DNA from: Patescibacteria group bacterium
GTDB taxonomy: Bacteria; Patescibacteriota; Dojkabacteria; GCA-002793355
Direction of reading: 5' to 3'
DNA: 64,000 bases
Assembly (NCBI GenBank): GCA_016860985.1
Contig: BOKM01000001.1
Coordinates: 2,310 to 66,309 of the forward strand
Below, piece after piece: positions 18,405 to 33,310 of the stretch; positions within the stretch are counted from its first letter, which is position 1; every line of letters starts with the position of its first letter. The position numbers were made by a program, and so were the translations under genes. Under the pieces are notes generated by a model, which ran no database searches, was not told the DNA's origin, and saw nothing but the letters and a program-made list of their open reading frames with translations.

Positions 18405-18490
18405 TGGTAAGGATAGAACTAATTAATCGGGAGGTCAAGAGAAAGAATATCTGGAACCTAAAAATTGATACTGAAGACCCTTTGGTTATA

Positions 18491-18577
18491 GATAGGACTG
18501 ACGGGACTTGAAGCAGCCATTACAATAATGCGGAACTGGAAGGTCTGGTACATGGAATGAGACAGTATAAAAAGGAT
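18491..18577 (+). repeat. copy A (short form) of a conserved noncoding element family (GATAGGACTGACGGGACTTGAAG...AATGCGG...GGTCTGG...GAGACAGTATAAAAAGGA)
   Basis: About 80% identity to 24714-24826 and to the split copy at 47538-47600 plus 47830-47866. Same orientation in all three. Confidence 0.6.
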
Positions 18578-18602: not shown

Positions 18603-19253
18603 TTACCCTTCTACCAAACGCTCAGGAATGAACATTTCTGCATAAACTGGACCACCATGGCTCTTCATTAGTTTCCCAAGAAGGTATGGATGCAAATACT
18701 CTGAAGGAACAATTTGACAGAATGCTTTAATCATTTGGGGATCAATCAATTTCGCATACTTAAAAATAGATAAGACTTTCATTTTTTGCTCAATTTGCTC
18801 ATTGCTCCCAAAGAAAAACATCTTTGGAATAAAGTTGGTCGAATAGGGAGATCTAAAGTAAATAAGGTTTTCAGCAGAACGACTTGCAATATTGACACAC
18901 TTTGCAACGACTTCGTGATCAGTATGGTTGTCTTGCGGGAAATGAGTATAGATAGTATCGGGTTTAAACTCTTCAACAAGTTTTTCTAACTCCTTTTTCA
19001 CTTCCGTTGTATATTTTTCAAGTTCAGAGTCTGGATACTCAGAAAAAGAGTAATCTTTAACTCCCATTAATGTCGCAGCATCTAGAGCTTCCTTTGTCCT
19101 GATTTCTTCATATTCTTTTGCTTTTATCCCGCCTCTCGTTACACAGTGAATCTTTACTTTCGCCCCGTTCTTGATTAAATCTTCAATCTTCATTGACATG
19201 CTGATTTCAGCATCGTCTGGGTGCGCAACAATAATTAGAACTCGTTTTATCAT
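18603..19253 (-). CDS. PIG-L/LmbE-family deacetylase
   Basis: N-terminal VLIIVAHPDDAEI (AHPDD zinc-binding motif) and downstream HxDH-type motif (DNHTDHE). Confidence 0.75.
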   Translation of the reverse strand: MIKRVLIIVAHPDDAEISMSMKIEDLIKNGAKVKIHCVTRGGIKAKEYEEIRTKEALDAATLMGVKDYSFSEYPDSELEKYTTEVKKELEKLVEEFKPDTIYTHFPQDNHTDHEVVAKCVNIASRSAENLIYFRSPYSTNFIPKMFFFGSNEQIEQKMKVLSIFKYAKLIDPQMIKAFCQIVPSEYLHPYLLGKLMKSHGGPVYAEMFIPERLVEG

Positions 19254-19255
19254 TT

Positions 19256-20167
19256 TTAGTAGTTAGTAATCATAAGTTCTGATATAGAGCCTCTACTCGT
19301 CCCCTTAGAGTTAATATTCCTATTTGCGCGTACCTTTTTAATAAAGAATTTTTTGTACAGGGATTCAAAAAAGTTATCATTTATATCTGAATTATGTGGG
19401 TCAGAGTTGCTAAGTATAAGATTTGCGCCAAGATTATCCATTCGCTTGTAATAATCAGCTAAACGTTTTTGATCTTCGTCCGTGAATCCCTCTTTCGAGT
19501 AACTTGTAAAACTTGCTGCCTGCTTTAGTGGACGATATGGAGGATCAAGGTAAATCAAAGTGCCCTTTGTCACATAGTCTTCAGATAGCTGAAAATCTCC
19601 ACAAAGGATAACAGTCTTTTTCAATGACTTACTTACCTCAAATAGATTCTCCTTATCACAAATTTTTGGGTTCACATATCTTCCAAAAGGTACGTTGAAT
19701 TCCCCTTTCTTATTTTGTCTAAACAAACCATTAAAGCAAGTTCGATTAAGAAAGATTATCAACACCGTTCTCTCAATCCAATTAGGATTATAATGTGCAT
19801 AATCTATACCTTTTTGGGTCTCGTTATACAACATTCTCTTCAAATAGAAGAACTTTTCTCTCTCTGTTGAGACAAGACTTAAATACTCCTTCTGAATATT
19901 TTCCAATCTCTCGATAACCTCTTTTACATGAAGCTTTATTGTCTTGTACGCTAACACAAGGTCAGGATTAATATCAATTATTACTGACTTACCAATTTCA
20001 TAATTGTTGTTCAGATAGAAGAAGAAGGAACCACCACCAATAAAAGGCTCAATATATGTGGCAATCTTTTTTGTTTTAGTTACACTATTTGGTAGTCGTG
20101 CAATTAGATCATTCATTAACTGCCTTTTGCCACCTGCCCATTTTAGAAAGGGTTTTGAGTTAATCAT
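19256..20167 (-). CDS. Dam-class (D12) N6-adenine DNA methyltransferase, DpnM/MboIA-like
   Basis: N-terminal FLKWAGGKRQL and catalytic DPPY with EPFIGGGSFFF (AdoMet motif I). Last gene of a three-gene R-M operon on the minus strand. Confidence 0.85.
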   Translation of the reverse strand: MINSKPFLKWAGGKRQLMNDLIARLPNSVTKTKKIATYIEPFIGGGSFFFYLNNNYEIGKSVIIDINPDLVLAYKTIKLHVKEVIERLENIQKEYLSLVSTEREKFFYLKRMLYNETQKGIDYAHYNPNWIERTVLIIFLNRTCFNGLFRQNKKGEFNVPFGRYVNPKICDKENLFEVSKSLKKTVILCGDFQLSEDYVTKGTLIYLDPPYRPLKQAASFTSYSKEGFTDEDQKRLADYYKRMDNLGANLILSNSDPHNSDINDNFFESLYKKFFIKKVRANRNINSKGTSRGSISELMITNY

Positions 20168-20925
20168 TTAATTAAATACCTCGCAGAGTTAAGCAATTTA
20201 ATGCCATTGTATTCATACAGGTCTTTAAACCCAAAGTGCCAAAGATAGTACAAATCCCCTCGCTTCTCAAAAAACAATGTTGTTACCTTCTTGTCTGTAT
20301 GTTCCTGCCATTGTCGATATGGATAGTAAAGCTGTCTAATAATTTCGTTCGAGGTACTTGAGTTTTTTGCCTCAACAAGCACTACTGAATCTCTTCCTTC
20401 ATACCCTGCATCGACCTCAGTTTGTACACTTTGAGTTGAAATTGTTTGAGTTCCAACTTTAAATGAAAATTCCGGTGTATATTTGCGTCCTCGAATCGTT
20501 AAAACCAAAGTAGGATCTTTAGTAAAGGTTCTAATAATACTCGAAGCGTACGTAAAATCTAAATGCTGCATCTCAGAATTCCCAACTTTTGTAGTCTCAA
20601 GGGTAAAATCAAGGATTGATTTATGGATTTCTGGTTCTGAGGTAATATCAGGGATGTCAACGTATCCTTCTCCTTTTATTATTGCATATGTTCCATTTTT
20701 TATCGGCAATAAAAACAATCCAAGTTTTCTAAAAATTTGTGGTCTGGAGTCTCTTGTATCCTGTTTACATAGGATCCTAGGCTCAGTAATCCCATCTGAA
20801 ACAAAATCTTTACAACTCTTTTTTATCTGAGTCGCTGTGATAGTCAGTGGCTCTTTTGAAAAATCATGATTGGTAATTCCAACATCTTCTCCAATCTTAT
20901 CCCACGCTCTATCTCTTGCTGTCAT
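20164..20925 (-). CDS. putative type II restriction endonuclease (candidate DpnII/MboI-like GATC cutter)
   Basis: 253-aa ORF sandwiched between two DNA methyltransferases with 1-4 nt overlaps (translational coupling). Gene order and sizes resemble the DpnII/LlaDCHI three-gene systems. No independent motif confirmation. Confidence 0.4.
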   Translation of the reverse strand: MTARDRAWDKIGEDVGITNHDFSKEPLTITATQIKKSCKDFVSDGITEPRILCKQDTRDSRPQIFRKLGLFLLPIKNGTYAIIKGEGYVDIPDITSEPEIHKSILDFTLETTKVGNSEMQHLDFTYASSIIRTFTKDPTLVLTIRGRKYTPEFSFKVGTQTISTQSVQTEVDAGYEGRDSVVLVEAKNSSTSNEIIRQLYYPYRQWQEHTDKKVTTLFFEKRGDLYYLWHFGFKDLYEYNGIKLLNSARYLIK

Positions 20926-21725
20926 TACGTATATTGTAATATTTTATTGATAAGGGCATGATATCGGGCTTTCGATACAGAAAGATATTCCTCTGACGTA
21001 TCTATTCCAATATACTTTCTTTTCAACCTATTTGCAACAATTCCTGTTGTAGAACTACCACAAAACGGGTCTAATACTAAATCGCCTTCGTTAGTGCTTG
21101 CAAGGATTACCCTCTTAAGTAGTTCTTCGGGCTTTTGTGTAGGGTGCTTTCCCTGAGCTTTATCACTCATTTTTGGAGTACCAATTGACCAAACGGAACG
21201 CATTTGTGTGTTCGGCTTTTTGATAGAATCTTCTTTCCAATCGCCATTTTTCATTTCTTGGTAATTAAACGTGTGCTTAGCTTTTTTCTCTTTTCTCACC
21301 CATAAAAGATTCTCATGACTGGCTGTGAAGAATCTGCAGCTAAGGTTTGGTGCTGCATTAGGCTTAAACCATGTAATATCATTTAAAATGTGAAATCCAA
21401 GTCGTTGAATTGCATAACCTATTTGATATATAGAATGGTACGTACTGCTGACCCAGAGTGTTCCATTTGGTTTCAAGACGCGCTTACAGGACTCAAGCCA
21501 TCTCATATGAAAATCGAAATTCTCGCCCAAACTCCTTCCCATATCCCATTCACCTTTTTTGACTGAAACCATTTTTCCATTTTGACAAGTAAAGCTTCCG
21601 TCAGAAAGAAAGTACGGAGGATCGGCAAATATCATATCAAACGTATTCTCTTTGTACTCGTTCAATACGTCATTACAATCTCCGTGATGCAATGTGAACG
21701 AATTATTCGAATAATACGGAGTCAT
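20925..21725 (-). CDS. beta-class N6/N4 DNA methyltransferase (DpnA-like)
   Basis: FADPPYF (motif IV) precedes VLDPFCGSSTTGIVA (motif I), the circular permutation typical of beta-class amino-methyltransferases. Confidence 0.8.
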   Translation of the reverse strand: MTPYYSNNSFTLHHGDCNDVLNEYKENTFDMIFADPPYFLSDGSFTCQNGKMVSVKKGEWDMGRSLGENFDFHMRWLESCKRVLKPNGTLWVSSTYHSIYQIGYAIQRLGFHILNDITWFKPNAAPNLSCRFFTASHENLLWVRKEKKAKHTFNYQEMKNGDWKEDSIKKPNTQMRSVWSIGTPKMSDKAQGKHPTQKPEELLKRVILASTNEGDLVLDPFCGSSTTGIVANRLKRKYIGIDTSEEYLSVSKARYHALINKILQYT

Positions 21726-21770
21726 GAATCCATTTTATAGGATAAATTATGATTTGGGAAATAATTCAAA

Positions 21771-22421
21771 TTAGGAAATATCACTTTTTTTACGTTCCTC
21801 CAACTGAAGCACTTCTTCTATTTTGACATATTTCACTTTGTTTACATATAAGTAGGCTAGAAGTTCTACAAGCGAATACGTGACAATATTGTCGTACTTA
21901 TTAATTCTATCGATTTGTTTTTCATGAGCGGCAATATTTCCAACAATCCTAATACAGTGGGCCAATTTTTTAATTCTTTGTGGCCATTTTGCTAATCCTA
22001 TCCATTTAGAAAGTGACTTGAATTTTGGTATCTGTACCTTTTGGTCTTTCAGTATTTCTTCAACAATTTTCCGTAACCTAACAGAAAACTGTTCCTGAGA
22101 TCGTTGTTTCAACCTGAATGTTTCAAGGACTAAGTCTCTAACGTGATGCGGAACAGCCTCATCAATTACGATTTCGACTGGATACAGTTGAAACCAGTCG
22201 TCCTTCGTCAGTCTGATCGTTTCGTCTTCAATTGCACCAATATATCCGTCATCTATTGTTTTCAAGATATACCGTGAACATGTTGAACATTTAAGAACAC
22301 AGGTATGCATGTAATTCTCCCAATAGTCATTTGACGATTTCGGAAGAAAAACATCAGTTATATCAACTACAGTACAAAGAGTTCTATTCCCACAGTTGCT
22401 ACAAAACGCTAGTTCTTCCAT
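21771..22421 (-). CDS. DUF4145 domain protein with an N-terminal zinc ribbon
   Basis: C-terminal IRIVGNIAAHEK matches the conserved R-x-x-G-N-x-A-A-H-E motif of DUF4145. N-terminal CSNCGN...C...CSTC. Confidence 0.5.
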   Translation of the reverse strand: MEELAFCSNCGNRTLCTVVDITDVFLPKSSNDYWENYMHTCVLKCSTCSRYILKTIDDGYIGAIEDETIRLTKDDWFQLYPVEIVIDEAVPHHVRDLVLETFRLKQRSQEQFSVRLRKIVEEILKDQKVQIPKFKSLSKWIGLAKWPQRIKKLAHCIRIVGNIAAHEKQIDRINKYDNIVTYSLVELLAYLYVNKVKYVKIEEVLQLEERKKSDIS

Positions 22422-22504
22422 TCTTTATTATACTCTCTGAGTTATTTGTAATAATAATTATCTTGGAACTAGACTTACATCAAGATTCGCGGTACTTGTG
22501 GTGT

Positions 22505-23845
22505 ATGGAAAACACAATAAAAGTACCTGACTTGCGCTACTGCCTCTATGCTCGAAAATCCTCCGAGTCGGACGAAAAGCAGGCGATGAGTATAGACAGC
22601 CAACTTCACGAAATGAGTGATCTAGCAAAGCGAGATAATATAAACATTGTCGATATTATTACAGAAAGCCATTCTGCTAAAGAAACTGGCCAACGACCAC
22701 AGTTTAACCTTATGGTTGAAGGAATTAGTAGTGGAAAGTATAACGGCATCATAACGTGGGCTCCAGATAGAATTTCAAGAAATGCAGGCGACCTTGGACG
22801 GATAGTCGATTTAATGGATCAAGGGAAGCTTTCTCTAATCAAAACACATTCTCAAACCTTTACAAACAACCCTAATGAGAAGTTCCTATTAATGATACTC
22901 TGCTCACAAGCAAAACTGGAAAACGACAATAGGGGAATAAACGTAAAGCGTGGACTAAAGAGTAAATGTCAGACAGGGGTAAGACCAACAATGCCACCTC
23001 TCGGATATATTAATATCATGAGAGCAAATAGAATCTCAACTGTAATACTTGATCCCGAAAAATCCCCAATAATTAAACAAATGTTCGTATATGTCGCGGA
23101 CAAAGGACTTTCAGGAAGAACCATCCGAAAATGGCTAAGAAAAATTGGATTCAAATCAAGAACAGGAAAAGACCTCGTTTTAAGTCTAATCTACAAAATG
23201 CTCAGAAATCCCTTTTATTATGGATATTTTAAATACGGTGAGAAAATATACAAAGGTTCACATGAACCTCTCATATCCAAACAAGTATTTGATAAGGTAC
23301 AAATACAGTTGCAAACAACACCACGACAGTGGAATAAACAGCTCTACCCTTTCAAGAAAATTTGCAAATGTGGAAGTTGTGGTAGTAGTATAACTGCAGA
23401 AACTAAGTTTCGAGTAGTTCAGAATGGGGATGTACATCCTCATATCTATTATCACTGCAATAGAATAAATGACTACGATTGTCATGAACCTTATATAACT
23501 GAAGCTGAACTCATACAGCAACTTGTTGCTCTTATGCCGCAAATCAAACTCGACAAAGAATACATTTGGAACCTATTCCAAGACGAAATCAAACGATTAA
23601 ATCATCTACAACAAATAATGAATCTGAAAAACAGCGTAGCTTTTGAAACAACTCCACATAGGAACATGTCCAAATCCATAAGTGCGATTAGTGAAAGAGA
23701 AACAGAAATGATCAAAGATTACTTCTTACACATTCTGCAGTATGGAACACCGGAAGAAAGGCAGAATGTATTAACAGGAGTTAAGTCAATCTTTATCCTA
23801 AAAGAACGGGAGCTTCGTCTTAAAGGTCAGATTAACGCTTTATGA
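22505..23845 (+). CDS. large serine recombinase (resolvase catalytic domain + recombinase domain + zinc ribbon)
   Basis: N-terminal YCLYARKSSESDEKQAMSIDSQ with the catalytic Ser, central recombinase domain, and CKCGSCGSS...YYHCN zinc ribbon. About 97% aa identity to the copy at 44850-46190. The start is set at MENTIK by comparison with the paralog; the longer ORF from 22331 overlaps the divergent gene. Confidence 0.85.
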   Translation: MENTIKVPDLRYCLYARKSSESDEKQAMSIDSQLHEMSDLAKRDNINIVDIITESHSAKETGQRPQFNLMVEGISSGKYNGIITWAPDRISRNAGDLGRIVDLMDQGKLSLIKTHSQTFTNNPNEKFLLMILCSQAKLENDNRGINVKRGLKSKCQTGVRPTMPPLGYINIMRANRISTVILDPEKSPIIKQMFVYVADKGLSGRTIRKWLRKIGFKSRTGKDLVLSLIYKMLRNPFYYGYFKYGEKIYKGSHEPLISKQVFDKVQIQLQTTPRQWNKQLYPFKKICKCGSCGSSITAETKFRVVQNGDVHPHIYYHCNRINDYDCHEPYITEAELIQQLVALMPQIKLDKEYIWNLFQDEIKRLNHLQQIMNLKNSVAFETTPHRNMSKSISAISERETEMIKDYFLHILQYGTPEERQNVLTGVKSIFILKERELRLKGQINAL

Positions 23846-24605
23846 CAATTTGTTGGAACATATCATCAGTATCATCTTTCCATTGCCCCGACCACGATAG
23901 TTTTAGCTCAATTAGCGAAGGACTAGCATTTTTTGCGTAAACACAAATCTTTAATTTGTAATCACCAGGAGTTAAACAATCCTTTTGGGCAAAAACTATA
24001 TCCTTACTTTCCAAAAAAAACATAGTCTTCTCTTTTTCTTCCGAAGAGTATCCCCTGTACTTTGAGGATGGCTTACACGTAGCAGGATTTGCAATCGAAC
24101 CAATATCAACAAAAAACATATTTCCCGACTGAATTGTCAGTACTCGTATCTCTTGATTATACTTTGCCGACCAGTTAAGAATTATTGGGGTAAAATTCTT
24201 TTCTTCAATAAAATCTCCTGAGCTATCTTTTTTAGAAATGCTTTCTAGGTATGTACTGCAATCTTCAGCTGCAAGCTTTCCTTCATTTTTTACCGCGATT
24301 CTGAAGAAATATACATCGATTCCTAAATCTGTTGTAGTTTTATGACAGAAGGGACTACCAAGTTTGAATAGGATTTTATTTTTTGGGGAGCGAAAAGTGT
24401 ATTTGAAATGTTCCGACATAAGTGGGCCGATAAATGCGACGAGTAGCGCAATAAGGCCAATTGCTATCTGTATGTAATCCGAAACAGATAACATTGATAC
24501 TACTGCAGGAACTAATGTTGGTGTCATCATTAATTGTACATTCTTTCCGACATACATACCAGAATTGTACTGGCATGTACTTTGCGTTCCAAAGCTTAGA
24601 ACCAA
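23832..24605 (-). CDS. hypothetical membrane-anchored protein
   Basis: 257-aa ORF with an N-terminal TM segment (IAIGLIALLVAFIGPLM). Confidence 0.4.
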   Translation of the reverse strand: MVLSFGTQSTCQYNSGMYVGKNVQLMMTPTLVPAVVSMLSVSDYIQIAIGLIALLVAFIGPLMSEHFKYTFRSPKNKILFKLGSPFCHKTTTDLGIDVYFFRIAVKNEGKLAAEDCSTYLESISKKDSSGDFIEEKNFTPIILNWSAKYNQEIRVLTIQSGNMFFVDIGSIANPATCKPSSKYRGYSSEEKEKTMFFLESKDIVFAQKDCLTPGDYKLKICVYAKNASPSLIELKLSWSGQWKDDTDDMFQQIVIKR

Positions 24606-24611
24606 GGAGTA

Positions 24612-24826
24612 TTTATTTTTGCAATTTTTAGATGATTTTGCGTATTACAGGACTACGTTGACACTTTTCCAATTTGGGGTATCCGTAAGTAATGGTAAGT
24701 TGGACATTTCCAGATAGGACTGACGGGACTTGAAGCAACCGTTGCAAAAATGCGGAGCATGTGGGTCTGGCACCGTACAATGGCTGGTTGGTAGAAAAAA
24801 TGAGACAAAAGAGACAGTATAAAAAG
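24612..24826 (+). repeat. copy B (long form, about 215 nt) of the conserved noncoding element, ending in an RBS-like AAAGGA just before the ATG of the next operon
   Basis: 24612-24720 matches 47432-47545 (AAGGAGTATT..TTTTAG....CGTATTACAGGACTACGTT.ACAC.TTTCC...GATAGGACTGACGGGACTTGAAG). The core also matches 18491-18577. Confidence 0.6.
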
Positions 24827-24830: not shown

Positions 24831-25937
24831 ATGATTTGTCTCAATCTAGAAAAATTGCTTATCACTTATCCACACAATCTGATGAATTTCTGTTATAATC
24901 CACAGCAATATGTAACAATACTATTGCACATGATTCAACCTACAAAGTCTTGGAATAATCCAAATCAACATTATAAGGATGCGCTGACTACTCCTTGGTA
25001 TAAAGTCTTGACTGGCCTACAAAGCGATTTCGTTAATGCGACAGTTTCATTTTATAAAGAAATTGGTTATGATTTTACCCTTCTTCCGATAACTACAGGT
25101 GCTATTTCTAGCCCTATGGGGTTAGGAAGTGACTCGTCACCGGTTCAAGTGAATATTGGAGGTGTCGAGACATATCTTGCCGATTCAATGCAATTCATGC
25201 TTGAGTATGCATGCAGAGTTAGAAAAAATGGATGCTATTATTTGGCACCATCGTTTAGAGGAGAACTTGCAGATGCAAGACACTTATGCCAATTTTATCA
25301 TTCAGAAGCAGAAATAGAAGGTACGATTACGGATGTAATGTCACTTGTAGAGAGATACGTAAAGTACCTTGCACAGTGGTATAAAGATCATAGCAAAAAT
25401 GAACTATTAACTGTAACTGATAATATTTCACATCTGGATACACTTATCAATATTGAAAAGATCCCAACAGTCACTTTCGCTGAAGCAGTCGATATCCTTG
25501 AAAACAATAGCGAATACATTCAAAATCATGGTATTTACCGAACAATTAACCATGCAGGCGAAAAGAAATTAATTGAGAAATATGGCGGATTTGTCTGGTT
25601 AACCCATTTTGATCATCTTGCAGTTCCATTCTATCAGAAGAATACTGATGACACATTTACGACTGCAATTAACGCAGATCTGCTTATGGGAATCGGAGAA
25701 ACAGTTGGCTCTGGTGAGCGACACTTCTCAAGAAGAGAAACAGAGAAAGCACTTGATTTTCATAAGGTGAGTAGAGATCATTACGAATGGTATTTAACAA
25801 TGAAGGAACTTGTACCAATGCAAACATCAGGCTTCGGACTTGGAGTTGAAAGATTCTTGTTATGGTTAACTAATCAAAATGATATTAGAGATATGCAATT
25901 AGTACCAAGATTTAATGGAGAAAAGGAGATACTATGA
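24831..25937 (+). CDS. class II aminoacyl-tRNA-synthetase-like catalytic core without an anticodon-binding domain (AsnRS/AsnA-like amino-acid ligase)
   Basis: Motif 2-like YYLAPSFRGELADARHLCQFYHSEAEIE and motif 3-like SGFGLGVERFLLWLT. No N-terminal OB fold, as in archaeal-type asparagine synthetase A paralogs. Confidence 0.55.
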   Translation: MICLNLEKLLITYPHNLMNFCYNPQQYVTILLHMIQPTKSWNNPNQHYKDALTTPWYKVLTGLQSDFVNATVSFYKEIGYDFTLLPITTGAISSPMGLGSDSSPVQVNIGGVETYLADSMQFMLEYACRVRKNGCYYLAPSFRGELADARHLCQFYHSEAEIEGTITDVMSLVERYVKYLAQWYKDHSKNELLTVTDNISHLDTLINIEKIPTVTFAEAVDILENNSEYIQNHGIYRTINHAGEKKLIEKYGGFVWLTHFDHLAVPFYQKNTDDTFTTAINADLLMGIGETVGSGERHFSRRETEKALDFHKVSRDHYEWYLTMKELVPMQTSGFGLGVERFLLWLTNQNDIRDMQLVPRFNGEKEIL

Positions 25938-26770
25938 AAAAATATACAGTAGAAGAAATAACAAAAATTAATTACACAGATTTTATCTCTTTGATTAAGG
26001 AAACGAATCGTTGCCCTGGAGGTAAAGACACAATTCGAAAGATAGTGCAGAATACTTTCATCGACGAAAACAGTAGGGTTCTCGATGTTGGTTCAAATAC
26101 AGGATTCACGTCTTTAGAACTTTCCCACATTTCAAAAGCAAAAATTTCGGGAATTGATGTTTCAGAAGCATGCGTAAATACTGCTAATGCACTGCTGGCA
26201 ACAGATATCGAAGAAGTGAGAAAAAGAGTCGATTTCCAAGTTGGTAGTGCATACGAGATTCCTTTCGAAAATGATACATTCGATCTTGTTGTAACTGGTG
26301 GTGCGACGTCATTTATGGATAAGAAACAACAGGCAATTTCAGAGTATAAACGAGTACTAAAACCATGGGGGTTTTTGAGTGCAACTCAATTATTCTATAC
26401 AACAAAACCACCCCAAGCTGTGGTTGATGCAGTTTCGAATGCAATTGGCGTCACGATAAATCCATGGTTGGAACAAGACTGGAAAAATGTATTCTTAGAA
26501 ACCCAAGAAAGTGGAGTACTTGAGCTGTATTATTATGAAAAGAACGAACTACAATCAAGGCCAGCTGACGTTATTGAAGAATACATGGAATACTTTATGG
26601 CGAAAGATCACCTAAAAGAATATTCTGAGGATGTTCGTAATGCGATTAGGAAAAAGTGGAAAATGTACATTGATGTATTCAATGAAAATCACAAGTATCT
26701 TGGTTACTTTATTTCATTATTCAGAAAAACTCAGTATCCAGAGGAGCCTGAATTATTTATAAGAAAATGA
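25934..26770 (+). CDS. class I SAM-dependent methyltransferase
   Basis: VLDVGSNTGFTSLEL (motif I) and DLVVTGGA (motif II region). Start overlaps the upstream gene by 4 nt. Confidence 0.7.
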   Translation: MKKYTVEEITKINYTDFISLIKETNRCPGGKDTIRKIVQNTFIDENSRVLDVGSNTGFTSLELSHISKAKISGIDVSEACVNTANALLATDIEEVRKRVDFQVGSAYEIPFENDTFDLVVTGGATSFMDKKQQAISEYKRVLKPWGFLSATQLFYTTKPPQAVVDAVSNAIGVTINPWLEQDWKNVFLETQESGVLELYYYEKNELQSRPADVIEEYMEYFMAKDHLKEYSEDVRNAIRKKWKMYIDVFNENHKYLGYFISLFRKTQYPEEPELFIRK

Positions 26771-26774
26771 TTCA

Positions 26775-27839
26775 GTGAAAGACCGTAACCAAAAATCCAA
26801 AAAAGGACAGAGTAAATCGGGAAAGCCCTTAGAGAAAGCAGACACATTGTTTATAGATAAACATGAAAGGGATACATTTTTACCGTTGCTGAGATATCTG
26901 TATGGGATCGAATTCCAAGACAAAATAGAGTTTGTGTCGTCATTATCTCTTACCTCACGAAAGTGTTTAATTTTCGATAATGAAGGGGTTAAGTATTTTC
27001 TTAAGCGTAAACCAGAGTATTCATTACAAGAACCATTGAGAACAAGAGCTATAAGGCTTCAGTCTCTACTTGCGACAAAAGTTCCCTTTATTCCCCAAAT
27101 CATATTTACAAAGACAGATAATCAACCACTGGGTGTTATTAATAGTAGTCATTATCTGCTTACTAAATATGTAGATGGTCAAATATTTGGAGGTCGGATT
27201 GAACAGTCAATTACGGGTGCATCAAAACTAGGGTTGATGCATAAAATTGCGAATCAAAATCTTGCAGAGGAGTCTTCGCCTGTTGACTCAAATGAGTCAG
27301 TTAAAACATTTATCGGTTACGCCGAGAAAATGAGTTTTTCTGATGCAAAATTGCAGAATGAAGTACTTGATAAAATAAGAAAGAAAGTACAGACATTAAA
27401 ATCCGAGAATAAGGGAAAAATGAGTTGGATTCACTCGGATTTCGCTCCATTTAATCTTGTATTTTCCGGTGACGAGGTCGTTGCCGTTAATGATTTTGAC
27501 AATGCAACGTTTGGTAACATATCTAAAGATGTTGCAGAATGCATTATTTCATTTGCAGATATTAACTATAATGGGGCGACGTCGTTTCTTAACAAGGTGA
27601 TCAGAACCTCAATTGATGAACGCTCTATGGCTAGATTGCTTGAGGCATATATGAATACATCTGAAAGTTCAATTAGTGATTTAACAGATTTACCAAATGA
27701 AATGAGTTTAATGTGGTTAAAATTGATGGTCCTAGGATTGCTTAGAGGTGATTTCGCATTAGAGGATGTTAATGTGGTACTGAATCACGCAGATGATCTT
27801 AATGTGGTAGGAAATGAATTACTACACTCTCTAAAATAG
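26775..27839 (+). CDS. aminoglycoside-phosphotransferase-fold (APH/choline-kinase-like) kinase
   Basis: WIHSDFAPFNLVF...VNDFDNATFGN corresponds to the HxDxxxxN catalytic loop plus the DFD/DFG metal-binding motif of the APH fold. GTG start 5 nt after the upstream stop. Confidence 0.55.
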   Translation: MKDRNQKSKKGQSKSGKPLEKADTLFIDKHERDTFLPLLRYLYGIEFQDKIEFVSSLSLTSRKCLIFDNEGVKYFLKRKPEYSLQEPLRTRAIRLQSLLATKVPFIPQIIFTKTDNQPLGVINSSHYLLTKYVDGQIFGGRIEQSITGASKLGLMHKIANQNLAEESSPVDSNESVKTFIGYAEKMSFSDAKLQNEVLDKIRKKVQTLKSENKGKMSWIHSDFAPFNLVFSGDEVVAVNDFDNATFGNISKDVAECIISFADINYNGATSFLNKVIRTSIDERSMARLLEAYMNTSESSISDLTDLPNEMSLMWLKLMVLGLLRGDFALEDVNVVLNHADDLNVVGNELLHSLK

Positions 27840-27840
27840 T

Positions 27841-28836
27841 ATGCGAGAACTTATCTATCCAACGAAGATGAGAGCAGGTCAAAAGCTAGGTGTTTTTGCA
27901 TCTTCAAGTCCCGCCTTATCATTCCCAAATGCAAATGATTCATACAAGTATATTAATGCAAAAGGCGTAAACGTTTTTGAGCACAAACAATGCAGAATAA
28001 AGAACAGACACACTGCAGGAACGGTGGTTGACAGAGTATCGGCAATTAATGACTTACTGCTCGATAATTCAATTGGTATTCTCATGGCTTATTGGGGAGG
28101 TACAAATACCAATGATTTATTAAAGTATCTTGATTATGAGTTATTTGCTAGATATCCCAAAATAATTATTGGATATTCTGATACAACGGCATTACTTCAG
28201 GCAATAACATCAAAGACAGGATTAGTCACTTTTATGGGGCCAGCCGCAATTACGTTTATTAAACCTGAACCCTTTGAGTATTCTTGGAGTTACTTTTATA
28301 AAATGTGTATTGCACCTGAGGATGAGGTTGTTATTGAAGATTCGCCAGTTTTTGCAGATGACGAATACTTTCTTCGAGAAGATAGTAATCACCGAATAAT
28401 TCGACCAAATTCTGGTCGCCAAGTTTTTAAAGATGGAAATTTCAAAGGGGCGTGCATTGCTAGCAATCTCGAGACTTTATTGGCGTTAGCCGGTACTGAA
28501 TATTTTCCAAATCTCGAAGGGAAAGCCCTTTTTATTGAGGAAAGTGAAGAAGAAAATCTATCAACGGTAAATAGAAATTTTAGGCAATTATCGCAGGTCG
28601 ATGGCTTCGATAAGTTGAGTGCTTTGTTGATAGGAAGGTTTTGCGAAAAGAGTGGATTTTCTGATCAAGATTCTGTCGAAATGATGTTAGAAGATACTCT
28701 AGTAAACACAAACTTTCCTGTTATCTATAATCTTGATTTCGGCCATTCTGATCCATTATTCACTATTCCCAATGGTGGTAGCGTTATTATTGATACAAAA
28801 CAGAAAGTTTTACAATTTTCAAAAGCTGTCGTCTAA
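27841..28836 (+). CDS. S66 peptidase (LD-carboxypeptidase LdcA / microcin-C immunity MccF-like)
   Basis: IIGYSDTTALLQAI (catalytic Ser in G-Y-S-D-x-T-A-L) and C-terminal DFGHSD (His). Start is 2 nt after the kinase stop. Confidence 0.7.
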   Translation: MRELIYPTKMRAGQKLGVFASSSPALSFPNANDSYKYINAKGVNVFEHKQCRIKNRHTAGTVVDRVSAINDLLLDNSIGILMAYWGGTNTNDLLKYLDYELFARYPKIIIGYSDTTALLQAITSKTGLVTFMGPAAITFIKPEPFEYSWSYFYKMCIAPEDEVVIEDSPVFADDEYFLREDSNHRIIRPNSGRQVFKDGNFKGACIASNLETLLALAGTEYFPNLEGKALFIEESEEENLSTVNRNFRQLSQVDGFDKLSALLIGRFCEKSGFSDQDSVEMMLEDTLVNTNFPVIYNLDFGHSDPLFTIPNGGSVIIDTKQKVLQFSKAVV

Positions 28837-29828
28837 TAACGATTGTCGACTGGTGTTGCCTCATAAAGATACCAATCTGCGTCAAACTGGTCTGATATCA
28901 ATAAGTCTCCTCTTTCATTCAAAAGATGTACGTTTGAATGTTCTCCATCTACTAATAACCAATGTCCATTAAAGTGTAAACTGTCCTGTAACCAAACAGT
29001 CTTGATTGAGACTTTATTTTCAAGAATAAATTTACCAGACGCAATCTTCCCGTAATATGCTTCACCCCTCGCAGTATCAGAAAAACTTATTCTTTTATCT
29101 GCATATACTCTAACTGAATGTGGCCTTTTAAGATCGCTCATTATTGGAGTAATTTCACCTGTCGTTTTGTTGATAGTATTAAGCGTTCCTTGCATGAATA
29201 AAGTTACTAATATGGTATTGTCGTCGTATTCTGCGGCTGCATTCGGATGTGCTGTATGTAACCACGTATCATATTCTACATACCTGTGATCAATATCCTT
29301 GCTCAAGGTACGATTAATTCCGAAGGCATCAGTCATGAAACCGTGATCCATGGCCCACCATTGCCAAAGTACCTCTTTCCCATTCTCTGATAGTTCAAAT
29401 ATAGCATCAACCCCAGCAGAAGTAAGTAAAAATCCTTTTTTAGTTTTGCGCATAGAGTGTAAAGCATTAAAGGATTTTAGAGATGACAGTTCAGTGCTTT
29501 TAGTAAGATCAAGAGAATGAATTCCAATTGAGTGATGTGATGCGCTCAAAATGCCATTATCGGTAACCATAATTCCATGTAGGAAATCCGATTGCGCAGT
29601 CGCTACAATGGTACCTTCCTTGTTAATCTTTGCTATTAATCCTGCATATGGATTGTCAATTTCTGGTATATTCCACTCTTTTATGCTTGGACGAACTCGT
29701 TCTTGGTTCTTTTCTCTGGCCCAACGTTCCTTTCTTTTTCCAAGATCTCGATATGTAACGGACAAAAAATATTCAGGCATACTAGAAGAACTGTCATATA
29801 CAGTACGAACGAGAGGGAATTTACTCAT
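28833..29828 (-). CDS. hypothetical protein (possible beta-propeller), downstream of the NUDIX gene
   Basis: 331-aa ORF, 2-nt spacing from the upstream NUDIX gene and 4-nt overlap with the convergent peptidase gene. Confidence 0.4.
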   Translation of the reverse strand: MSKFPLVRTVYDSSSSMPEYFLSVTYRDLGKRKERWAREKNQERVRPSIKEWNIPEIDNPYAGLIAKINKEGTIVATAQSDFLHGIMVTDNGILSASHHSIGIHSLDLTKSTELSSLKSFNALHSMRKTKKGFLLTSAGVDAIFELSENGKEVLWQWWAMDHGFMTDAFGINRTLSKDIDHRYVEYDTWLHTAHPNAAAEYDDNTILVTLFMQGTLNTINKTTGEITPIMSDLKRPHSVRVYADKRISFSDTARGEAYYGKIASGKFILENKVSIKTVWLQDSLHFNGHWLLVDGEHSNVHLLNERGDLLISDQFDADWYLYEATPVDNRY

Positions 29829-29829
29829 T

Positions 29830-30276
29830 TTACTTTGTAATCTTTAATCTGATTGCTTCAGCTTTTTCCATACTTGCGAGAATCCAAGGTGGAGTATTTG
29901 GATTTGATTTGATTTCTTCAAATGTCATCCAAGATACTTCATCAACTTCATCCTCTATCATTGCCGATGGATCACCTGATTTGTATTCTGCAATAAAGAC
30001 AATATCAATGACATGGTTGCCTTTAGCACTTACAAACATCTTGCTTTCTACATATTCGAGCTTTTCTTGAACTTGTACGTTAACTTCTTCCAAGATTTCT
30101 CGTTTTACACCAAATTCTAGTGTATCAGTAAGTGCGTCTGAATAATCAACTTTTCCGCCAACCATAGAAAGAGTACCACCTGCATGATCTTCTTTTTTTG
30201 ATCGTAAAATCATGAGCCATTTATTATTTTGAAAAATAGCTGCTTCAACATTTACTATAAATTTTGGAGGTTCCAT
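29830..30276 (-). CDS. NUDIX hydrolase
   Basis: Nudix box GGKVDYSDALTDTLEFGVKREILEEVNV (GX5EX7REUXEEXGU). Confidence 0.8.
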   Translation of the reverse strand: MEPPKFIVNVEAAIFQNNKWLMILRSKKEDHAGGTLSMVGGKVDYSDALTDTLEFGVKREILEEVNVQVQEKLEYVESKMFVSAKGNHVIDIVFIAEYKSGDPSAMIEDEVDEVSWMTFEEIKSNPNTPPWILASMEKAEAIRLKITK

Positions 30277-30349
30277 AGCACTGATTATAGCATAAAATTA
30301 TTGATAAATAGGTTTGGGAGTATAAGGACTTTAGAGTACAATATTCTAT

Positions 30350-30673
30350 ATGATATATTCAAAAGAAGATCAAGAATTGATCCAAAAAGCAATTAGTTTC
30401 TTAGTTGAGAACTTCAATAAATCAGGTAACAACAATAAGCCTGTTATCCTTCATAGCATTCGGCTTGCGATGCGCCTTTACGACAAAGGGAAAAAGGCAT
30501 CAGTAGTTGTTGGAGCTCTTCTGCACGATTTGTTGGAAGATACACAGGTTACATTGTCTAACATTACGTCGAAATTCGGTATTGTACATAGTTCTTTTAA
30601 CGCTTGTAGCTCATTTTCCACTCGTTTTACAAAAACCTCTATCTCCATATATTCATTATACAGTGATTTATAA
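30350..30673 (+). pseudogene. truncated HD-domain (RelA/SpoT-type hydrolase-like) gene fragment
   Basis: HSIRLAMRL...ALLHDLLEDT are HD-domain metal ligands, but the ORF ends after 107 aa in low-complexity sequence where the family normally continues. Probable remnant. Confidence 0.4.
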
Positions 30674-30833
30674 TAGTATTATCCTAAGCTAATCTGAATT
30701 CCAACATGCGCCCAAGTCCTTATTGGTGTAGATGATTGGGATTCAGTAATACAGGCCGATTTAAACCTGACGTTTGACATTGGCAAGCTGCCTAAATTTA
30801 TCTTAGAGTAGCTAGAGTATATTCCCATAGTAA

Positions 30834-33104
30834 TTGTTGTATAATTCTTATATGTGGAAACTTCTTAAGAATTGGCGTGAAGTTCTAATTAAGTCCGACT
30901 TCGAGGTAAACCAAAAACTAAAACACTTGCTAGAAACAACCACAGGTTCGATTCTTGTAAGTGGGGACAGAGGTGTAGGCAAAACACATATTATTCAAAC
31001 CATCTCAAGGGAAAAGTCAGATTCAATGATATTTATTTGGCTAAATACAATAAAGATAAACGCAGTAAGTGAAAAGGGAACCAATTTGCCAGACCAAGTT
31101 GAAAGCCTGAACATTCTATTTATATTGAAATTTCTTATTGAGGAACTTTCCTCTTTAGGCTTGCCGGAACAAAAAATCTTAAAGAGCATAAAAAAAGATT
31201 TATATATTACTGAAAAAGCTATCACCTCAGATTCTAAACTTAGTGTAAACAACTCTGGGGCAGAGGTCGGTTATCGACAGTCAGTAAACGAAAAATGGCA
31301 AGGATACACTACAGCACAACTATCTTCAACACTTGCGAATTACTTAGTTGATGTAAAGGGTCATATAGGTATGACTGGCTTTGAGAAGATTATGCACGCT
31401 TTTGGTTCTGTCGGGATTGGAATCGGAAACGCGTTCCAAAAGTTTTTCAATAAACGAACTGAGCGAATTGTCTTTGTATTCGATGAACTTGATGATATTG
31501 GTGACATTAATTTGCTACTTGACCTAATTAAAAAGTTCAAAAATCTTTTCATGAGATCTGGCATTAGCTTTTTATTTATTACCTCTTCGAATGTATATGA
31601 GACTGTGACAAACCTAGAATCAGCTTTTACCTCAGGACAAGAAGACAAATATCGAACAATATTTTCAGACATAGTTTACATTCGTAGATATACTATATCC
31701 ACGTTGACCAAACATATCAGCAATCTGACTTTAGTTAAGTCAGATAATTTTGATGCTTTGTCCACATATTTAGCAATTGAGGCTAAAGGAAATATCTATA
31801 ATTTGAGACGTACAATAGCAGCAAGAGAAGTTTTTGATGGAGACGAAATAGTACTCAGACATTCAGATATTGATAAGAAATCGGTAAGTGTAGTAAATTA
31901 TGCATTTAGAATCGGAGAATTACTAATAGAAAAGTGTGGATTTGAGCAATATATCGAAGATCTGTTATATATGACGCTTTATGAATATACCTCCGATCTT
32001 CTGCTTTATTTGTCAGGCACAAGGCAAGAAAGTAGAAAGACACGCTTTGAACTGTATCAGAAAAACACTAGTTATACGAAGTCAAAAAAGAATTTAATAG
32101 AAAAATTTATTAACGAATTTTTTGAAACACTATCTGTAATCATTACATCGCAACCAAACGGAATTAACTTTGGTGAGGAATCCCAAACTATTTCGTGGGA
32201 GGATGTAAAAGAAAAAATTGACAGCAATATTGACGTGTTGGATCTTTTATGGTCAATTACTCCAAGCCATCGTCGTTTCTACGAGAAGTACCTAAGTGTC
32301 ACTGAGATGGTAAAAATTGTATTCAAGCAAGATGATATCCTAAAATCTTCTCAATTAAGGGAACACGAAATGATTAATGATGAAACTTCGCTAGAAATCA
32401 AGAATGCACTTGAGCAGGCAACACTTACAGTACGTAAAGGATCTTCTTCTGTGACAGAGAGGGGAACGGCAATTCTCACTGATATTGAAAACAAGATAAA
32501 TAAGTATTGGGATTTTTCAAAAGGTATTCTGCTAAGAAAGGATACAGACGGAATCGAGTATAATCGAACTGAGCATACTGTCAAATTTAATCAGCAAAAT
32601 GCGATTACATCTTCACCAACAACCAGATTGTATACTCACCTACTTGAAGGTTCATATAAAAGCAAATTTGACATAGAATATACGGTGAAGACATCCTACA
32701 ACAAGTCAACTGTTGATGTTCTACTCTATTTTGCTGAGCAATATACCGGGACAGCGTCAGACGCATACTATATTGTAAGAATTACTGCACAAGATCCACC
32801 TTCAGAATTTAATAGAGCTGGAATTTTGCTTAAGGATTCCAATATTGAGTATGATAAAGCTTGGTATCTCATTAACCAACCAGTTAAAGTCAAGGCAATT
32901 GGTTTAAACGAACCCTATACCATAAGAATAAAACTTGATAAAGGAATAATAACATTATATTTAAAGAAACAATCGAAAGAAAAGTACACATCAACTGATA
33001 CTGTAGAATCGTATCAAGTAAATCAAGAAAGTAGTTTTAGTCATATCATCACGACAAGTCAAGGACATCCAATAGAGATTTTAAATATAATAAAGAAGGA
33101 ATAG
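30834..33104 (+). CDS. P-loop NTPase, KAP-family-like (756 aa)
   Basis: Walker A GDRGVGKTH and a distant Walker B RIVFVFDELDDIGD about 170 aa downstream (KAP-like spacing and hhhhDxLD form), with a long non-catalytic C-terminal half. Confidence 0.5.
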   Translation: MLYNSYMWKLLKNWREVLIKSDFEVNQKLKHLLETTTGSILVSGDRGVGKTHIIQTISREKSDSMIFIWLNTIKINAVSEKGTNLPDQVESLNILFILKFLIEELSSLGLPEQKILKSIKKDLYITEKAITSDSKLSVNNSGAEVGYRQSVNEKWQGYTTAQLSSTLANYLVDVKGHIGMTGFEKIMHAFGSVGIGIGNAFQKFFNKRTERIVFVFDELDDIGDINLLLDLIKKFKNLFMRSGISFLFITSSNVYETVTNLESAFTSGQEDKYRTIFSDIVYIRRYTISTLTKHISNLTLVKSDNFDALSTYLAIEAKGNIYNLRRTIAAREVFDGDEIVLRHSDIDKKSVSVVNYAFRIGELLIEKCGFEQYIEDLLYMTLYEYTSDLLLYLSGTRQESRKTRFELYQKNTSYTKSKKNLIEKFINEFFETLSVIITSQPNGINFGEESQTISWEDVKEKIDSNIDVLDLLWSITPSHRRFYEKYLSVTEMVKIVFKQDDILKSSQLREHEMINDETSLEIKNALEQATLTVRKGSSSVTERGTAILTDIENKINKYWDFSKGILLRKDTDGIEYNRTEHTVKFNQQNAITSSPTTRLYTHLLEGSYKSKFDIEYTVKTSYNKSTVDVLLYFAEQYTGTASDAYYIVRITAQDPPSEFNRAGILLKDSNIEYDKAWYLINQPVKVKAIGLNEPYTIRIKLDKGIITLYLKKQSKEKYTSTDTVESYQVNQESSFSHIITTSQGHPIEILNIIKKE

Positions 33105-33190
33105 GACGTCTTCTTCGTGAATATTGCGGTTATCTTAAAGGTAAAATCCTCCATGGTGTATAATAAATGTATTGATGCTTTTCGCATTAA

Positions 33191-33275: not shown

Positions 33276-33278
33276 TGT

Positions 33279-33310
33279 TTGTGTGTAACGCGCAAATACA
33301 ATTGTATAAT
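33279..33310 (+). promoter_or_regulatory. candidate sigma70-type promoter (TG-TATAAT -10 element) for the ParB-methyltransferase operon
   Basis: TGTATAAT at 33303-33310, 18 nt upstream of the ATG at 33328. A weak TTGTGT -35-like hexamer lies 20 nt upstream. Confidence 0.35.

What the first reader, a model, noticed from the sequence alone, without database searches (positions are those of the whole stretch)
22466..23845. Two large serine recombinase paralogs with mosaic nucleotide identity (gene conversion signature)
22505-23845 and 44850-46190 encode about 97% identical 446-aa recombinases. At the DNA level the first 700 nt differ at many synonymous sites (about 88% identity), whereas roughly 23090-23350 versus 45440-45700 are about 99% identical. 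The C-terminal 30 residues differ. Both share a conserved 40-nt leader (CTAGACTT...TTCGCGGTACTTGTGGTGT-ATG). This pattern suggests ongoing recombination between the copies while both stay under purifying selection, as expected for active recombinases serving adjacent elements. Such paired copies in direct orientation could also mediate deletion or inversion of the 21-kb segment between them.
Basis: seen in the sequence. Interest (0 to 1): 0.55.

Follow-up and report, generated by a model that had tools for sequence, protein, structure and literature searches.

The report
Mosaic integrase genes of tandem islands
Two intact, closely related large serine integrase genes belong to neighbouring mobile islands stacked head-to-tail in a Patescibacteria (CPR) genome, have swapped pieces of sequence with each other, and belong to a very widespread family that, unusually for serine integrases, sits at the 3' end of tRNA-Ser genes.

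Summary
22505-23845 and 44850-46190 encode intact 446-aa large serine recombinases that are 89.3% identical in DNA and 94.6% in protein (not 97%). Identity is mosaic. Synonymous divergence (dS) is 0.89 for codons 1-198, 0 for codons 199-263, 0.31 for codons 264-386 and 0.93 for the C-terminal 60 codons. A 254-nt tract (23099-23352 / 45444-45697) has 2 mismatches.

The tract is not conserved in relatives (67-70% identity), so nucleotide-level constraint does not explain it. An orthologous contig from another sample has 98.6% identical cargo but only a 90.7% identical integrase gene, with blocks that match either copy (runs test p<1e-5). The genes therefore exchange sequence by homologous recombination while under purifying selection (dN/dS 0.07).

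Context: the window holds a head-to-tail array of at least three islands (about 18.53-24.75, 24.75-47.58 and 47.58->64 kb). They carry restriction-modification and other defence genes and terminase genes. Each ends with integrase, small genes and a conserved arm. A fourth integrase survives as a 19-codon stump (40147-40203).

In 80 related genomes, 31 copies have a tRNA-Ser gene on the opposite strand within 3 kb downstream. The element starts exactly at the tRNA 3' end.

Direct repeats allow deletion, not inversion. The family's tRNA targeting looks undescribed; the gene conversion itself is ordinary.

The parts
22505..23845 (+). rec1: intact large serine integrase of island E1 (446 aa)
   Evidence: Pfam Resolvase, Recombinase and Zn_ribbon_recom. 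It keeps all invariant residues of the family. An AF2 model matches SPbeta, Bxb1, phiC31 and A118 integrases.
22468..22504 (+). Conserved leader of rec1 (CTAGACTT-N12-GCGGTAC-N10-ATG). Probably a promoter/operator, with almost no 5' UTR.
   Evidence: The same motif, at the same spacing, lies upstream of family members that share only 50-65% protein identity. The simple sigma-70 scan does not call it.
23099..23352 (+). Conversion tract in rec1 (partner is 45444-45697): 254 nt with 2 mismatches
   Evidence: Identity to L001 and L007 in this stretch is only 67-72%.
23832..24605 (-). Variable small gene X (257 aa, membrane-like) between rec1 and the island end
   Evidence: Its only homologue is next to the L001 integrase (64% identity). 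No Pfam or PHROG hit.
24579..24670 (.). D4: conserved non-coding block at the tRNA-proximal end of E1 (second copy at 47402-47493)
   Evidence: A 28-nt near-invariant block plus a palindrome is shared with L001, L007 and L087. No covariation was found.
18490..18551 (.). Junction j0: right-arm motif, TGCGG core (18529-18533), then a 18-nt tRNA-3'-end-like piece. Left limit of E1. It has no D4.
24712..24773 (.). Junction j1 between E1 and E2: right arm of E1, TGCGG core (24751-24755), then a tRNA-like piece
   Evidence: It aligns with true element/tRNA-Ser junctions in L019-L032.
47534..47595 (.). Junction j2 between E2 and E3: right arm of E2, TGCGG core (47573-47577), then a tRNA-like piece
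18603..22421 (-). E1 cargo: PIG-L deacetylase, Dam methylase, type II restriction enzyme (DUF6996/6997), N4/N6 methylase, DUF4145
24831..40108 (.). E2 cargo, older part: aaRS-like/MTase/kinase/S66 peptidase operon, NUDIX, AAA ATPase, ParB-methylase, truncated TerS, type IIG R-M enzyme, phosphatase, DUF2779
40112..40203 (+). Stump of a third integrase gene (leader plus 19 codons, MEQPTNTPLTYCLYTRKSS)
   Evidence: It is 89.5% identical to the 5' end of the intact L007 integrase. It is also present, and further decayed, in L087.
40301..44719 (+). E2 cargo, younger part: 1472-aa DUF4011-helicase-nuclease (PDC-S37/Hhe-like defence candidate)
44813..46190 (+). Leader (44813-44849) and rec2 (44850-46190): intact integrase of island E2
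   Evidence: identical to database protein P0001, which is on a 1,051,512-bp NCBI contig.
47596..64000 (.). E3 (runs off the window): Old-family nuclease, ParB-methylase, TerS, TerL, full-length Type ISP R-M enzyme
   Evidence: The ParB-MTase/TerS region is 73% identical in DNA to that of E2.

Best explanation
rec1 and rec2 are the integrase genes of two neighbouring integrative islands, E1 (about 6.2 kb) and E2 (about 22.8 kb). These lie head to tail with a third island, E3, in a Patescibacteria chromosome.

Each island has the same layout: variable cargo (restriction-modification or other defence genes, and in E2/E3 a ParB-methylase/terminase module), then the integrase gene behind a conserved promoter-like leader, then one or two small variable genes, then a conserved non-coding arm (D4 plus a right-arm motif) that ends at a TGCGG core.

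In relatives, that core is the last bases of a tRNA-Ser gene. I therefore infer that the family inserts by serine-recombinase strand exchange at the extreme 3' end of tRNA-Ser, without disrupting the tRNA.

The islands share about 1.3 kb of roughly 90% identical integrase sequence in direct orientation. I infer that the host's homologous recombination machinery repeatedly exchanges patches between the copies. This could be gene conversion, or crossover with heteroduplex repair. It yields a mosaic gene with dS from 0 to 0.9 along its length, while selection keeps both proteins intact.

Shown here: the domain architecture, the mosaic and its statistics, the repeated junctions, and the tRNA-Ser association in relatives.

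Inferred: the exact crossover point, that an intact tRNA-Ser lies beyond the window, that the exchange happened inside this genome, and that the elements are still mobile.
For: Integrase identity:
- Pfam domains and PHROG integrase hit at 1.7e-63.
- The AF2 model has a catalytic domain, recombinase domain, zinc ribbon and coiled-coil hairpin. It matches full-length SPbeta, Bxb1, phiC31 and A118 integrases at E 1e-18 to 1e-12.

Mosaic:
-.
- L087 has 98.6% identical cargo over 7191 nt but a 90.7% identical integrase gene, with a block (nt 273-450) that is 97% identical to rec1.

Array:
- Three junction repeats, two D4 copies, paralogous ParB-MTase/TerS modules and a truncated third integrase.

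tRNA targeting:
- 43 of 80 related loci have an opposite-strand tRNA within 3 kb downstream of the integrase. 31 of these are tRNA-Ser, and 18 further loci are too short to tell.
- Near-identical right arms abut four tRNA-Ser isoacceptors that have different T stems. Occupied and unoccupied tRNA-Ser(TGA) genes are identical up to ...CTCTCCGC and then diverge.
- The window junctions align with those true junctions.
- The right-arm motif was found at 10 of 36 integrase-adjacent tRNA-Ser genes against 0 of 25 others (p=0.004).
Against: - No tRNA gene lies in the window. I could not retrieve the right end of the array.
- The leftmost junction has an element-type arm on its outer side, so a clean host/element boundary is not seen.
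- No empty site and no circular junction is available, so mobility is untested.
- Serine integrases normally cannot reuse an occupied site, so how the array formed is unexplained.
- Blocks shared with a copy from a different sample mean that some of the mosaic may predate arrival in this genome.
Confidence: 0.72

Rival explanations
1. The tandem arrangement was itself made by homologous (Campbell-type) insertion of a circular island into the resident island's integrase gene, or by unequal crossing-over. The 254-nt identity tract would then be the repaired heteroduplex at that crossover, not a separate non-crossover conversion.
For: The internal junctions look like intact circle junctions: an element right arm, the core, then an element-type left piece that is more similar among the three copies than to any tRNA. 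The tract has one sharp edge and a graded other side. A serine integrase has no free attB once a site is occupied (established knowledge of large serine integrases; PMC3783163 abstract).
Against: A single crossover does not explain the other blocks, such as nt 273-450 where L087 equals rec1 and nt 537-591 where L087 equals rec2. Several events are needed in any case. After the tract, the L087 3' part is closer to rec2 than to rec1, which is opposite to the simplest version of this model.
Confidence: 0.25
2. The mosaic was assembled before the islands entered this genome, by recombination among related islands circulating in the population. The two resident copies have not exchanged with each other.
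For: L087, from another sample, shares blocks with either rec1 or rec2. The family is very abundant, so co-infection is likely.
Against: The best-matching partner for nt 595-848 of each copy is the other copy in the same chromosome (99.2%). The ortholog L087 is only 93-97% identical there. Cargo next to rec2 is 98.6% identical to L087, so the integrase gene changed after that split.
Confidence: 0.2
3. The near-identical stretch is kept identical by selection on a nucleotide-level element inside the gene, such as an internal site, an RNA structure or an antisense gene.
For: Small antisense ORFs overlap the region (23258-23542 and 45603-45887).
Against: The same stretch is only 67-72% identical to L001 and L007, which is no better than the rest of the gene. 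There is no Rfam match.
Confidence: 0.03
4. Assembly artefact: reads from strain variants or from the two copies were mixed in a metagenome assembly, which created chimeric genes.
For: The source is a metagenome-assembled genome. Repeats longer than the k-mer size can cause switches.
Against: A switch inside a shared stretch swaps flanks but does not create the shared stretch. Both ORFs are intact. rec2 is identical to a database protein. An independent assembly (L087) shows the same architecture, including the integrase stump.
Confidence: 0.03

Closest known systems
Large serine integrases of phages and mobile elements (A118/LI, SPbeta SprA, Bxb1, phiC31, TP901-1)
   Same: Same domain order: catalytic domain with the R-x-S-S motif, recombinase domain, zinc ribbon and coiled-coil hairpin. 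The fold matches across the full length. The gene sits next to the element end.
   Different: Sequence relationship is very distant (phmmer E 1e-8 to 1e-10 against solved structures). At 446 aa it is short. The target is the 3' terminus of tRNA-Ser rather than a protein-coding gene. The catalytic domain is almost invariant across a whole phylum. No directionality factor was identified.
tRNA-gene genomic islands in tandem arrays (Islander/TIGER type)
   Same: The integrase lies near one end and the island abuts the 3' end of a tRNA gene. Several islands are stacked head to tail at one site, with defence cargo.
   Different: Those islands use tyrosine integrases and leave a displaced tRNA fragment as a direct repeat. 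[quoted passage not shown] Here no long tRNA repeat is found, and the boundary is at the last bases of the tRNA.
Tycheposons of Prochlorococcus (Hackl et al., bioRxiv 10.1101/2020.12.28.424599)
   Same: tRNA-linked islands occur in tandem. They come in cargo-carrying and PICI-like (terS) forms, and a minority encode a large serine recombinase.
   Different: Most tycheposons use a specific clade of tyrosine recombinases and carry replication genes. No primase or replicase was seen in the window. The host phylum differs, and the integrase family was not compared.
Concerted evolution / gene conversion between paralogous genes in bacteria
   Same: A tract of near identity is flanked by diverged sequence in directly repeated paralogues. 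Different blocks give incongruent relationships, and purifying selection is maintained.
   Different: The partners are integrase genes of separate mobile elements, so exchange may also occur between incoming and resident elements.

Membership tests
Large serine recombinase (serine integrase) | N-terminal resolvase-type catalytic domain with the nucleophilic serine and conserved arginines | tested here: met
   PF00239 matches residues 14-159. Y15, R17, S19, S20 and D88-R89..R92 are invariant in 25 family members, including both copies.
Large serine recombinase (serine integrase) | Recombinase domain plus zinc-ribbon domain C-terminal to the catalytic domain | tested here: met
   PF07508 matches 184-270 and PF13408 matches 282-342. 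C289, C292, C318 and C326 are invariant.
Large serine recombinase (serine integrase) | Coiled-coil motif inserted in the zinc-ribbon domain (controls directionality) | tested here: met
   The AF2 model has a helical hairpin at 351-375 / 397-413, followed by C-terminal strands. Full-length Foldseek matches to SPbeta, Bxb1 and phiC31 integrases. This is a model only (pLDDT 75).
Large serine recombinase (serine integrase) | Recombines short (40-50 bp) attP and attB sites at a central dinucleotide | not testable with these tools
   Only junction sequences are available. The candidate core is TGCGG. There is no empty site or circle junction.
Large serine recombinase (serine integrase) | Cognate recombination directionality factor for excision | not tested
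   The small genes next to the integrases are unrelated to each other and have no informative hits.
tRNA-targeting integrative island | An intact tRNA gene at one end of the island, close to the integrase | tested here: inconclusive
   Met in relatives: 31 of 80 loci have tRNA-Ser within 3 kb, and 43 of 80 have any tRNA. It is not visible in the window, and the array runs off its right end.
tRNA-targeting integrative island | A displaced tRNA fragment as a direct repeat at the far end | tested here: not met
   No copy of the 30 terminal tRNA bases (up to 7 mismatches allowed) lies upstream in 25 loci. The pieces of about 18-22 nt at the window junctions are only tRNA-like.
Tycheposon | tRNA-associated tyrosine recombinase clade plus replication module | tested here: not met
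   No tyrosine recombinase or primase/replicase domain was found in any ORF scanned.
Phage satellite (PICI-like) | Integrase plus packaging-redirecting genes (terS) without a full set of virion genes | tested here: inconclusive
   TerS and TerL are present in E3, and a truncated TerS in E2. No capsid or tail genes are seen in the window, but E3 is incomplete.
Gene conversion between paralogues | An identity tract bounded by diverged flanks, not conserved in outgroups, with blockwise incongruence | tested here: met

The most novel reading that the evidence does not exclude
This is a phylum-wide family of large serine integrases in Patescibacteria. It inserts islands precisely at the 3' terminus of tRNA-Ser genes (with sister clades at tRNA-Glu, Lys and Gln), builds tandem arrays of defence and satellite-like islands, and homogenises the DNA-binding part of co-resident integrases by gene conversion. 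The coiled-coil/C-terminal part, which controls directionality, stays different. Neighbouring islands would then share attachment-site specificity but could be excised separately.
Probability: 0.4. Interest if true: 0.65.

Novelty: new variant of a known kind. Interest (0 to 1): 0.45.

Why it matters
- Serine integrases are the preferred tools for inserting large DNA. A family with a short, universally conserved target, the end of tRNA-Ser, would be useful. It is native to Patescibacteria, which have almost no genetic tools.
- It would also add a serine-integrase counterpart to the tyrosine-integrase rule for tRNA-linked islands.
- The mosaic integrase genes give a concrete case of how stacked islands exchange sequence, fuse and decay. 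This matters for how defence islands turn over in very small genomes.
- The gene conversion alone is an expected consequence of having two similar genes 22 kb apart.

Tried and rejected
- tRNA and Rfam scans of the window: no tRNA and no credible RNA family. The junction pieces are too degenerate to score.
- Retrieving the source contig beyond 64 kb all failed. Exact look-ups of rec1, rec2 and TerL found nothing. An exact 32-mer in metagenomes gave 0 hits. Relatives of the Type ISP protein were only about 60% identical and came from unrelated contexts.
- The leader as a sigma-70 promoter: the consensus scan does not call it in either copy. The promoter reading rests only on family-wide conservation of the two blocks and their spacing.
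- D4/right arm as a structured RNA: RNAalifold gives -3.4 kcal/mol and no compensatory pairs. Rejected.
- Displaced tRNA fragments as island limits: none found. A model with crossover in the T loop was rejected, because near-identical elements abut isoacceptors with different T stems.
- Gene X as a conserved partner (possible directionality factor): it has a homologue only in L001.
- Nucleotide-level constraint and assembly artefact as causes of the tract: rejected (flanks).
- Literature: six completed searches found no description of tRNA-Ser-targeting serine integrases in CPR bacteria. A seventh pointed to the TIGER paper that describes S-Ints as not known to target tRNA genes. The library is incomplete.

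Full report
**1. Observation**

ORFs at 22505-23845 and 44850-46190 each encode 446 aa with Resolvase, Recombinase and Zn_ribbon_recom domains. They align without gaps. There are 143 nucleotide differences (89.3% identity) and 24 amino-acid differences (94.6%), of which 19 lie in residues 388-446.

Identity in 100-nt windows:

| Gene nt | Identity |
|---|---|
| 1-600 | 81-93% |
| 601-850 | 98-100% |
| 850-1100 | 93-97% |
| 3' end | 82-90% |

The tract is gene nt 595-848 (23099-23352 / 45444-45697). It has 2 mismatches in 254 nt. Its left edge is sharp, with 17 mismatches in the preceding 58 nt.

Nei-Gojobori estimates:

| Codons | dS | dN |
|---|---|---|
| 1-198 | 0.89 | 0.016 |
| 199-263 | 0 | 0.007 |
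| 264-386 | 0.31 | 0 |
| 387-446 | 0.93 | 0.25 |

Overall dN/dS is 0.07. A run of 198 nt without a third-position difference was never reached in 20,000 permutations.

The leader homology starts at 22468 / 44813 and is 27/37 identical.

**2. Is the mosaic recombination or constraint?**

I made a codon alignment with three relatives:
- L001: 83% protein identity, from an ENA metagenome.
- L007: 75% protein identity, from a GTDB MAG.
- L087: a Logan contig.

In nt 601-780 both window copies are only 67-72% identical to L001 and L007. Nothing at the nucleotide level is conserved there.

L087 is the ortholog of the right part of the second island. Its cargo (type IIG enzyme, phosphatase, DUF2779, helicase) is 98.6% identical to the window over 7191 nt. 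Its integrase gene is only 90.7% identical to rec2.

Site patterns among rec1, rec2 and L087 fall in blocks:
- nt 273-450: rec1 = L087
- nt 537-591: rec2 = L087
- nt 597-765: rec1 = rec2

The runs test gives 86 runs against 115 +/- 6 expected, and none of 100,000 permutations reached the observed value. The integrase gene is therefore a hot spot of homologous exchange, set in otherwise clonal DNA. It does not prove that every exchange was between the two resident copies.

**3. What the proteins are**

An AlphaFold2 model of rec1 (pLDDT 75) shows these parts:
- catalytic domain
- long helix E
- recombinase domain (168-271)
- zinc ribbon (287-342)
- helical hairpin (351-375 / 397-413)
- C-terminal strands

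Foldseek matches full-length SPbeta, Bxb1, phiC31 and A118 integrases at E 1e-18 to 1e-12. Sequence similarity to solved structures is weak.

The family is very large. More than 8000 database proteins were returned. The 120 listed all have at least 59% identity, most are about 435-445 aa, and the sources that name them call them Patescibacteria. The catalytic domain is almost invariant.

rec2 is identical to a protein on a 1,051,512-bp NCBI contig. rec1 is the 460-aa member of the same cluster.

The rec1/rec2 protein differences are concentrated in the coiled-coil tip, the second coiled-coil helix and the C-terminal strands. The DNA-binding domains differ at four positions only. I infer that both enzymes recognise the same sites but could differ in directionality control.

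**4. Surroundings: a tandem array**

Self-comparison of the window finds these repeats:
- a 62-nt repeat present three times (18490, 24712, 47534)
- a 92-nt block, D4, present twice (24579, 47402)
- a short inverted-repeat block after each junction
- paralogous ParB-methylase/TerS genes (33.3 and 56.1 kb, 73% DNA identity)

Each unit therefore reads: junction, cargo, integrase, one or two small genes, D4, right-arm motif, junction.

Cargo of each island:

| Island | Approx. coordinates | Cargo |
|---|---|---|
| E1 | 18.53-24.75 kb | type II restriction-modification system |
| E2 | 24.75-47.58 kb | aaRS-like/methyltransferase/kinase/S66-peptidase operon, ParB-methylase, truncated TerS, type IIG enzyme, PDC-S37/Hhe-like helicase-nuclease |
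| E3 | 47.58 kb to beyond the window | Old-family nuclease, ParB-methylase, TerS, TerL (PHROG 38, 4e-83), full-length Type ISP enzyme |

A third integrase survives only as its leader plus 19 codons at 40112-40203. It is 89.5% identical to the 5' end of the intact L007 integrase. L007 follows a ParB-methylase/TerS/TerL module like that of E3. E2 is therefore a fusion of two former islands. The same stump is present in L087 with its start codon mutated.

**5. The attachment site**

A scan of one genome per species returned 80 loci with family members.
- In 43 of them a tRNA gene lies on the opposite strand within 3 kb downstream of the integrase.
- 31 of these are tRNA-Ser, covering five anticodons.
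- The more distant members sit next to tRNA-Glu, Lys, Gln, Asn or Arg.
- 18 further loci have less than 3 kb of sequence there.

For a roughly 1-Mb genome with four or five tRNA-Ser genes, the chance expectation is below 1%. That figure is my own estimate.

Downstream of integrase-adjacent tRNA-Ser genes lies a conserved motif (GGTTGCTCCAAGACCC.TC.ACTAT). It is absent from other tRNA-Ser genes: 10 of 36 against 0 of 25, p=0.004. The window junctions carry the same motif and align with those true junctions up to TGCGG, which is the reverse complement of the tRNA's last bases.

Near-identical right arms abut isoacceptors with different T stems (GGGGG, GCGAG, GTGGG, GCGGG). An unoccupied tRNA-Ser(TGA) in L020 and an occupied one in L021 are identical up to ...CTCTCCGC and then diverge. 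No long displaced tRNA repeat is found upstream.

I therefore place the crossover at the extreme 3' end of the tRNA. This is an inference; the dinucleotide is not resolved.

At the window's internal junctions the core is followed by a piece of about 18-22 nt that looks like a tRNA T loop plus acceptor strand. The three copies of this piece resemble each other more than any real tRNA-Ser. I read it as the left arm of the next element mimicking the target. Decayed tRNA ends are not excluded.

The window has no tRNA, and I could not obtain the sequence beyond 64 kb.

**6. The leader**

The blocks CTAGACTT and GCGGTAC, at fixed spacing, lie upstream of family members that share only 50-65% protein identity. 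Usually 6-12 nt separate the second block from the ATG, and there is no ribosome-binding site. In two members with a longer spacer, an AAGGAA sequence appears.

This fits a -35/-10 type promoter giving a nearly leaderless mRNA, perhaps with an operator. The simple sigma-70 scan does not call it, so this remains a hypothesis. The leader marks where homology between islands begins only because the cargo upstream differs.

**7. Mechanism and rivals**

Best supported: site-specific islands stacked at one tRNA-type site, whose integrase genes are 1.3-kb direct repeats that undergo RecA-type exchange. A RecX gene is present in the window.

A non-exclusive rival is that the array itself arose by homologous insertion of a circular island into the resident integrase gene. 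The identity tract would then be the repaired heteroduplex. This would explain the circle-junction-like internal junctions and avoid the problem that an occupied site has no attB. One crossover cannot explain all the blocks, however.

Exchange before arrival in this genome is possible for some blocks. Nucleotide constraint and assembly artefact are rejected (section 2).

Direct repeats give deletion of 22,345 bp or a circle, not inversion. The enzymes act at the junctions, not at their genes.

**8. Comparison with what is known**

Architecture and behaviour match tRNA-linked island arrays of the Islander/TIGER type and tycheposons. Those use tyrosine integrases. [quoted passage not shown] Only the minority of the 937 Prochlorococcus elements that lack a tyrosine recombinase (about 27) carry a large serine recombinase.

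I found no description of this Patescibacteria family in the held literature.

My verdict is a new variant of a known kind. The gene conversion itself is ordinary. The integrase family and its target are the interesting part.

Noticed in passing
window 40112-40203: Leader plus the first 19 codons of a third integrase gene, cut right after the catalytic-serine motif and followed by the helicase gene with its own promoter-like sequence. The same stump, with ATG mutated to ATA, is in the independent contig L087.
   Followed up: yes
window 24712/47534, 24579/47402, 33334/56157: The distance from the unit junction to the ParB-methylase gene is the same within 1 nt in E2 and E3 (offsets 22822-22823). 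The roughly 8.56 kb in between encodes unrelated proteins. This is either coincidence or an unexplained length constraint.
   Followed up: partly
window 24831-28836: An operon of a class II aminoacyl-tRNA-synthetase-like protein, a SAM methyltransferase, an APH-type kinase and an S66 LD-carboxypeptidase. From memory, S66 is the MccF family. It could be a small-molecule (aminoacyl-nucleotide) synthesis or immunity cluster carried as island cargo.
   Followed up: no
window 24579-24670, 47402-47493; L001 11012-11096 and 15197-15280; L007 12043-12126 and 13116-13203; L087 11691-11781: A conserved non-coding block (D4) with a 28-nt near-invariant core (CGGAAAWGTGTMAACGTWGTCCTGTAATAC on the minus strand) and a palindrome (GGTTCTAAGCTTTGGAAC), at the tRNA-proximal end of every unit. 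There is no RNA covariation, so it is probably a protein-binding site.
   Followed up: partly
L001 11.2-15.35 kb; L007 12.2-13.3 kb: Units bounded by D4/right-arm repeats but lacking an integrase. One holds tRNA-Trp, a glycosyltransferase and an EamA transporter. The other holds a single 246-aa gene. They could be decayed islands or cassettes mobilised in trans.
   Followed up: no
L017 12820-12907, L020 12174-12259, L027 2608-2693, L040 1385-1468: tRNA-Ser genes with an ACT anticodon lie directly next to the elements in four genomes. This anticodon is unusual for bacteria.
   Followed up: no
window 33328-35036, 56133-59312; L007 571-3780: A ParB-domain DNA methylase, a small terminase and a large terminase form a module shared by E2 (TerL lost, TerS truncated), E3 and L007. 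It is followed by Type ISP/IIG restriction enzymes, with no capsid genes in view. This is a satellite-like layout.
   Followed up: partly
window 22468-22504, 44813-44849, 40112-40146, and upstream of most family members: The leader blocks CTAGACTT-N12-GCGGTAC are conserved across the family, usually with the ATG 6-12 nt after the second block and no Shine-Dalgarno sequence. This suggests a leaderless transcript and possibly autoregulation.
   Followed up: partly
alignment A1, rec1 residues 12-30, 85-150: The catalytic domain of this integrase family is almost invariant between proteins that are only 60% identical overall. That degree of conservation is unusual for a mobile-element integrase.
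   Followed up: no
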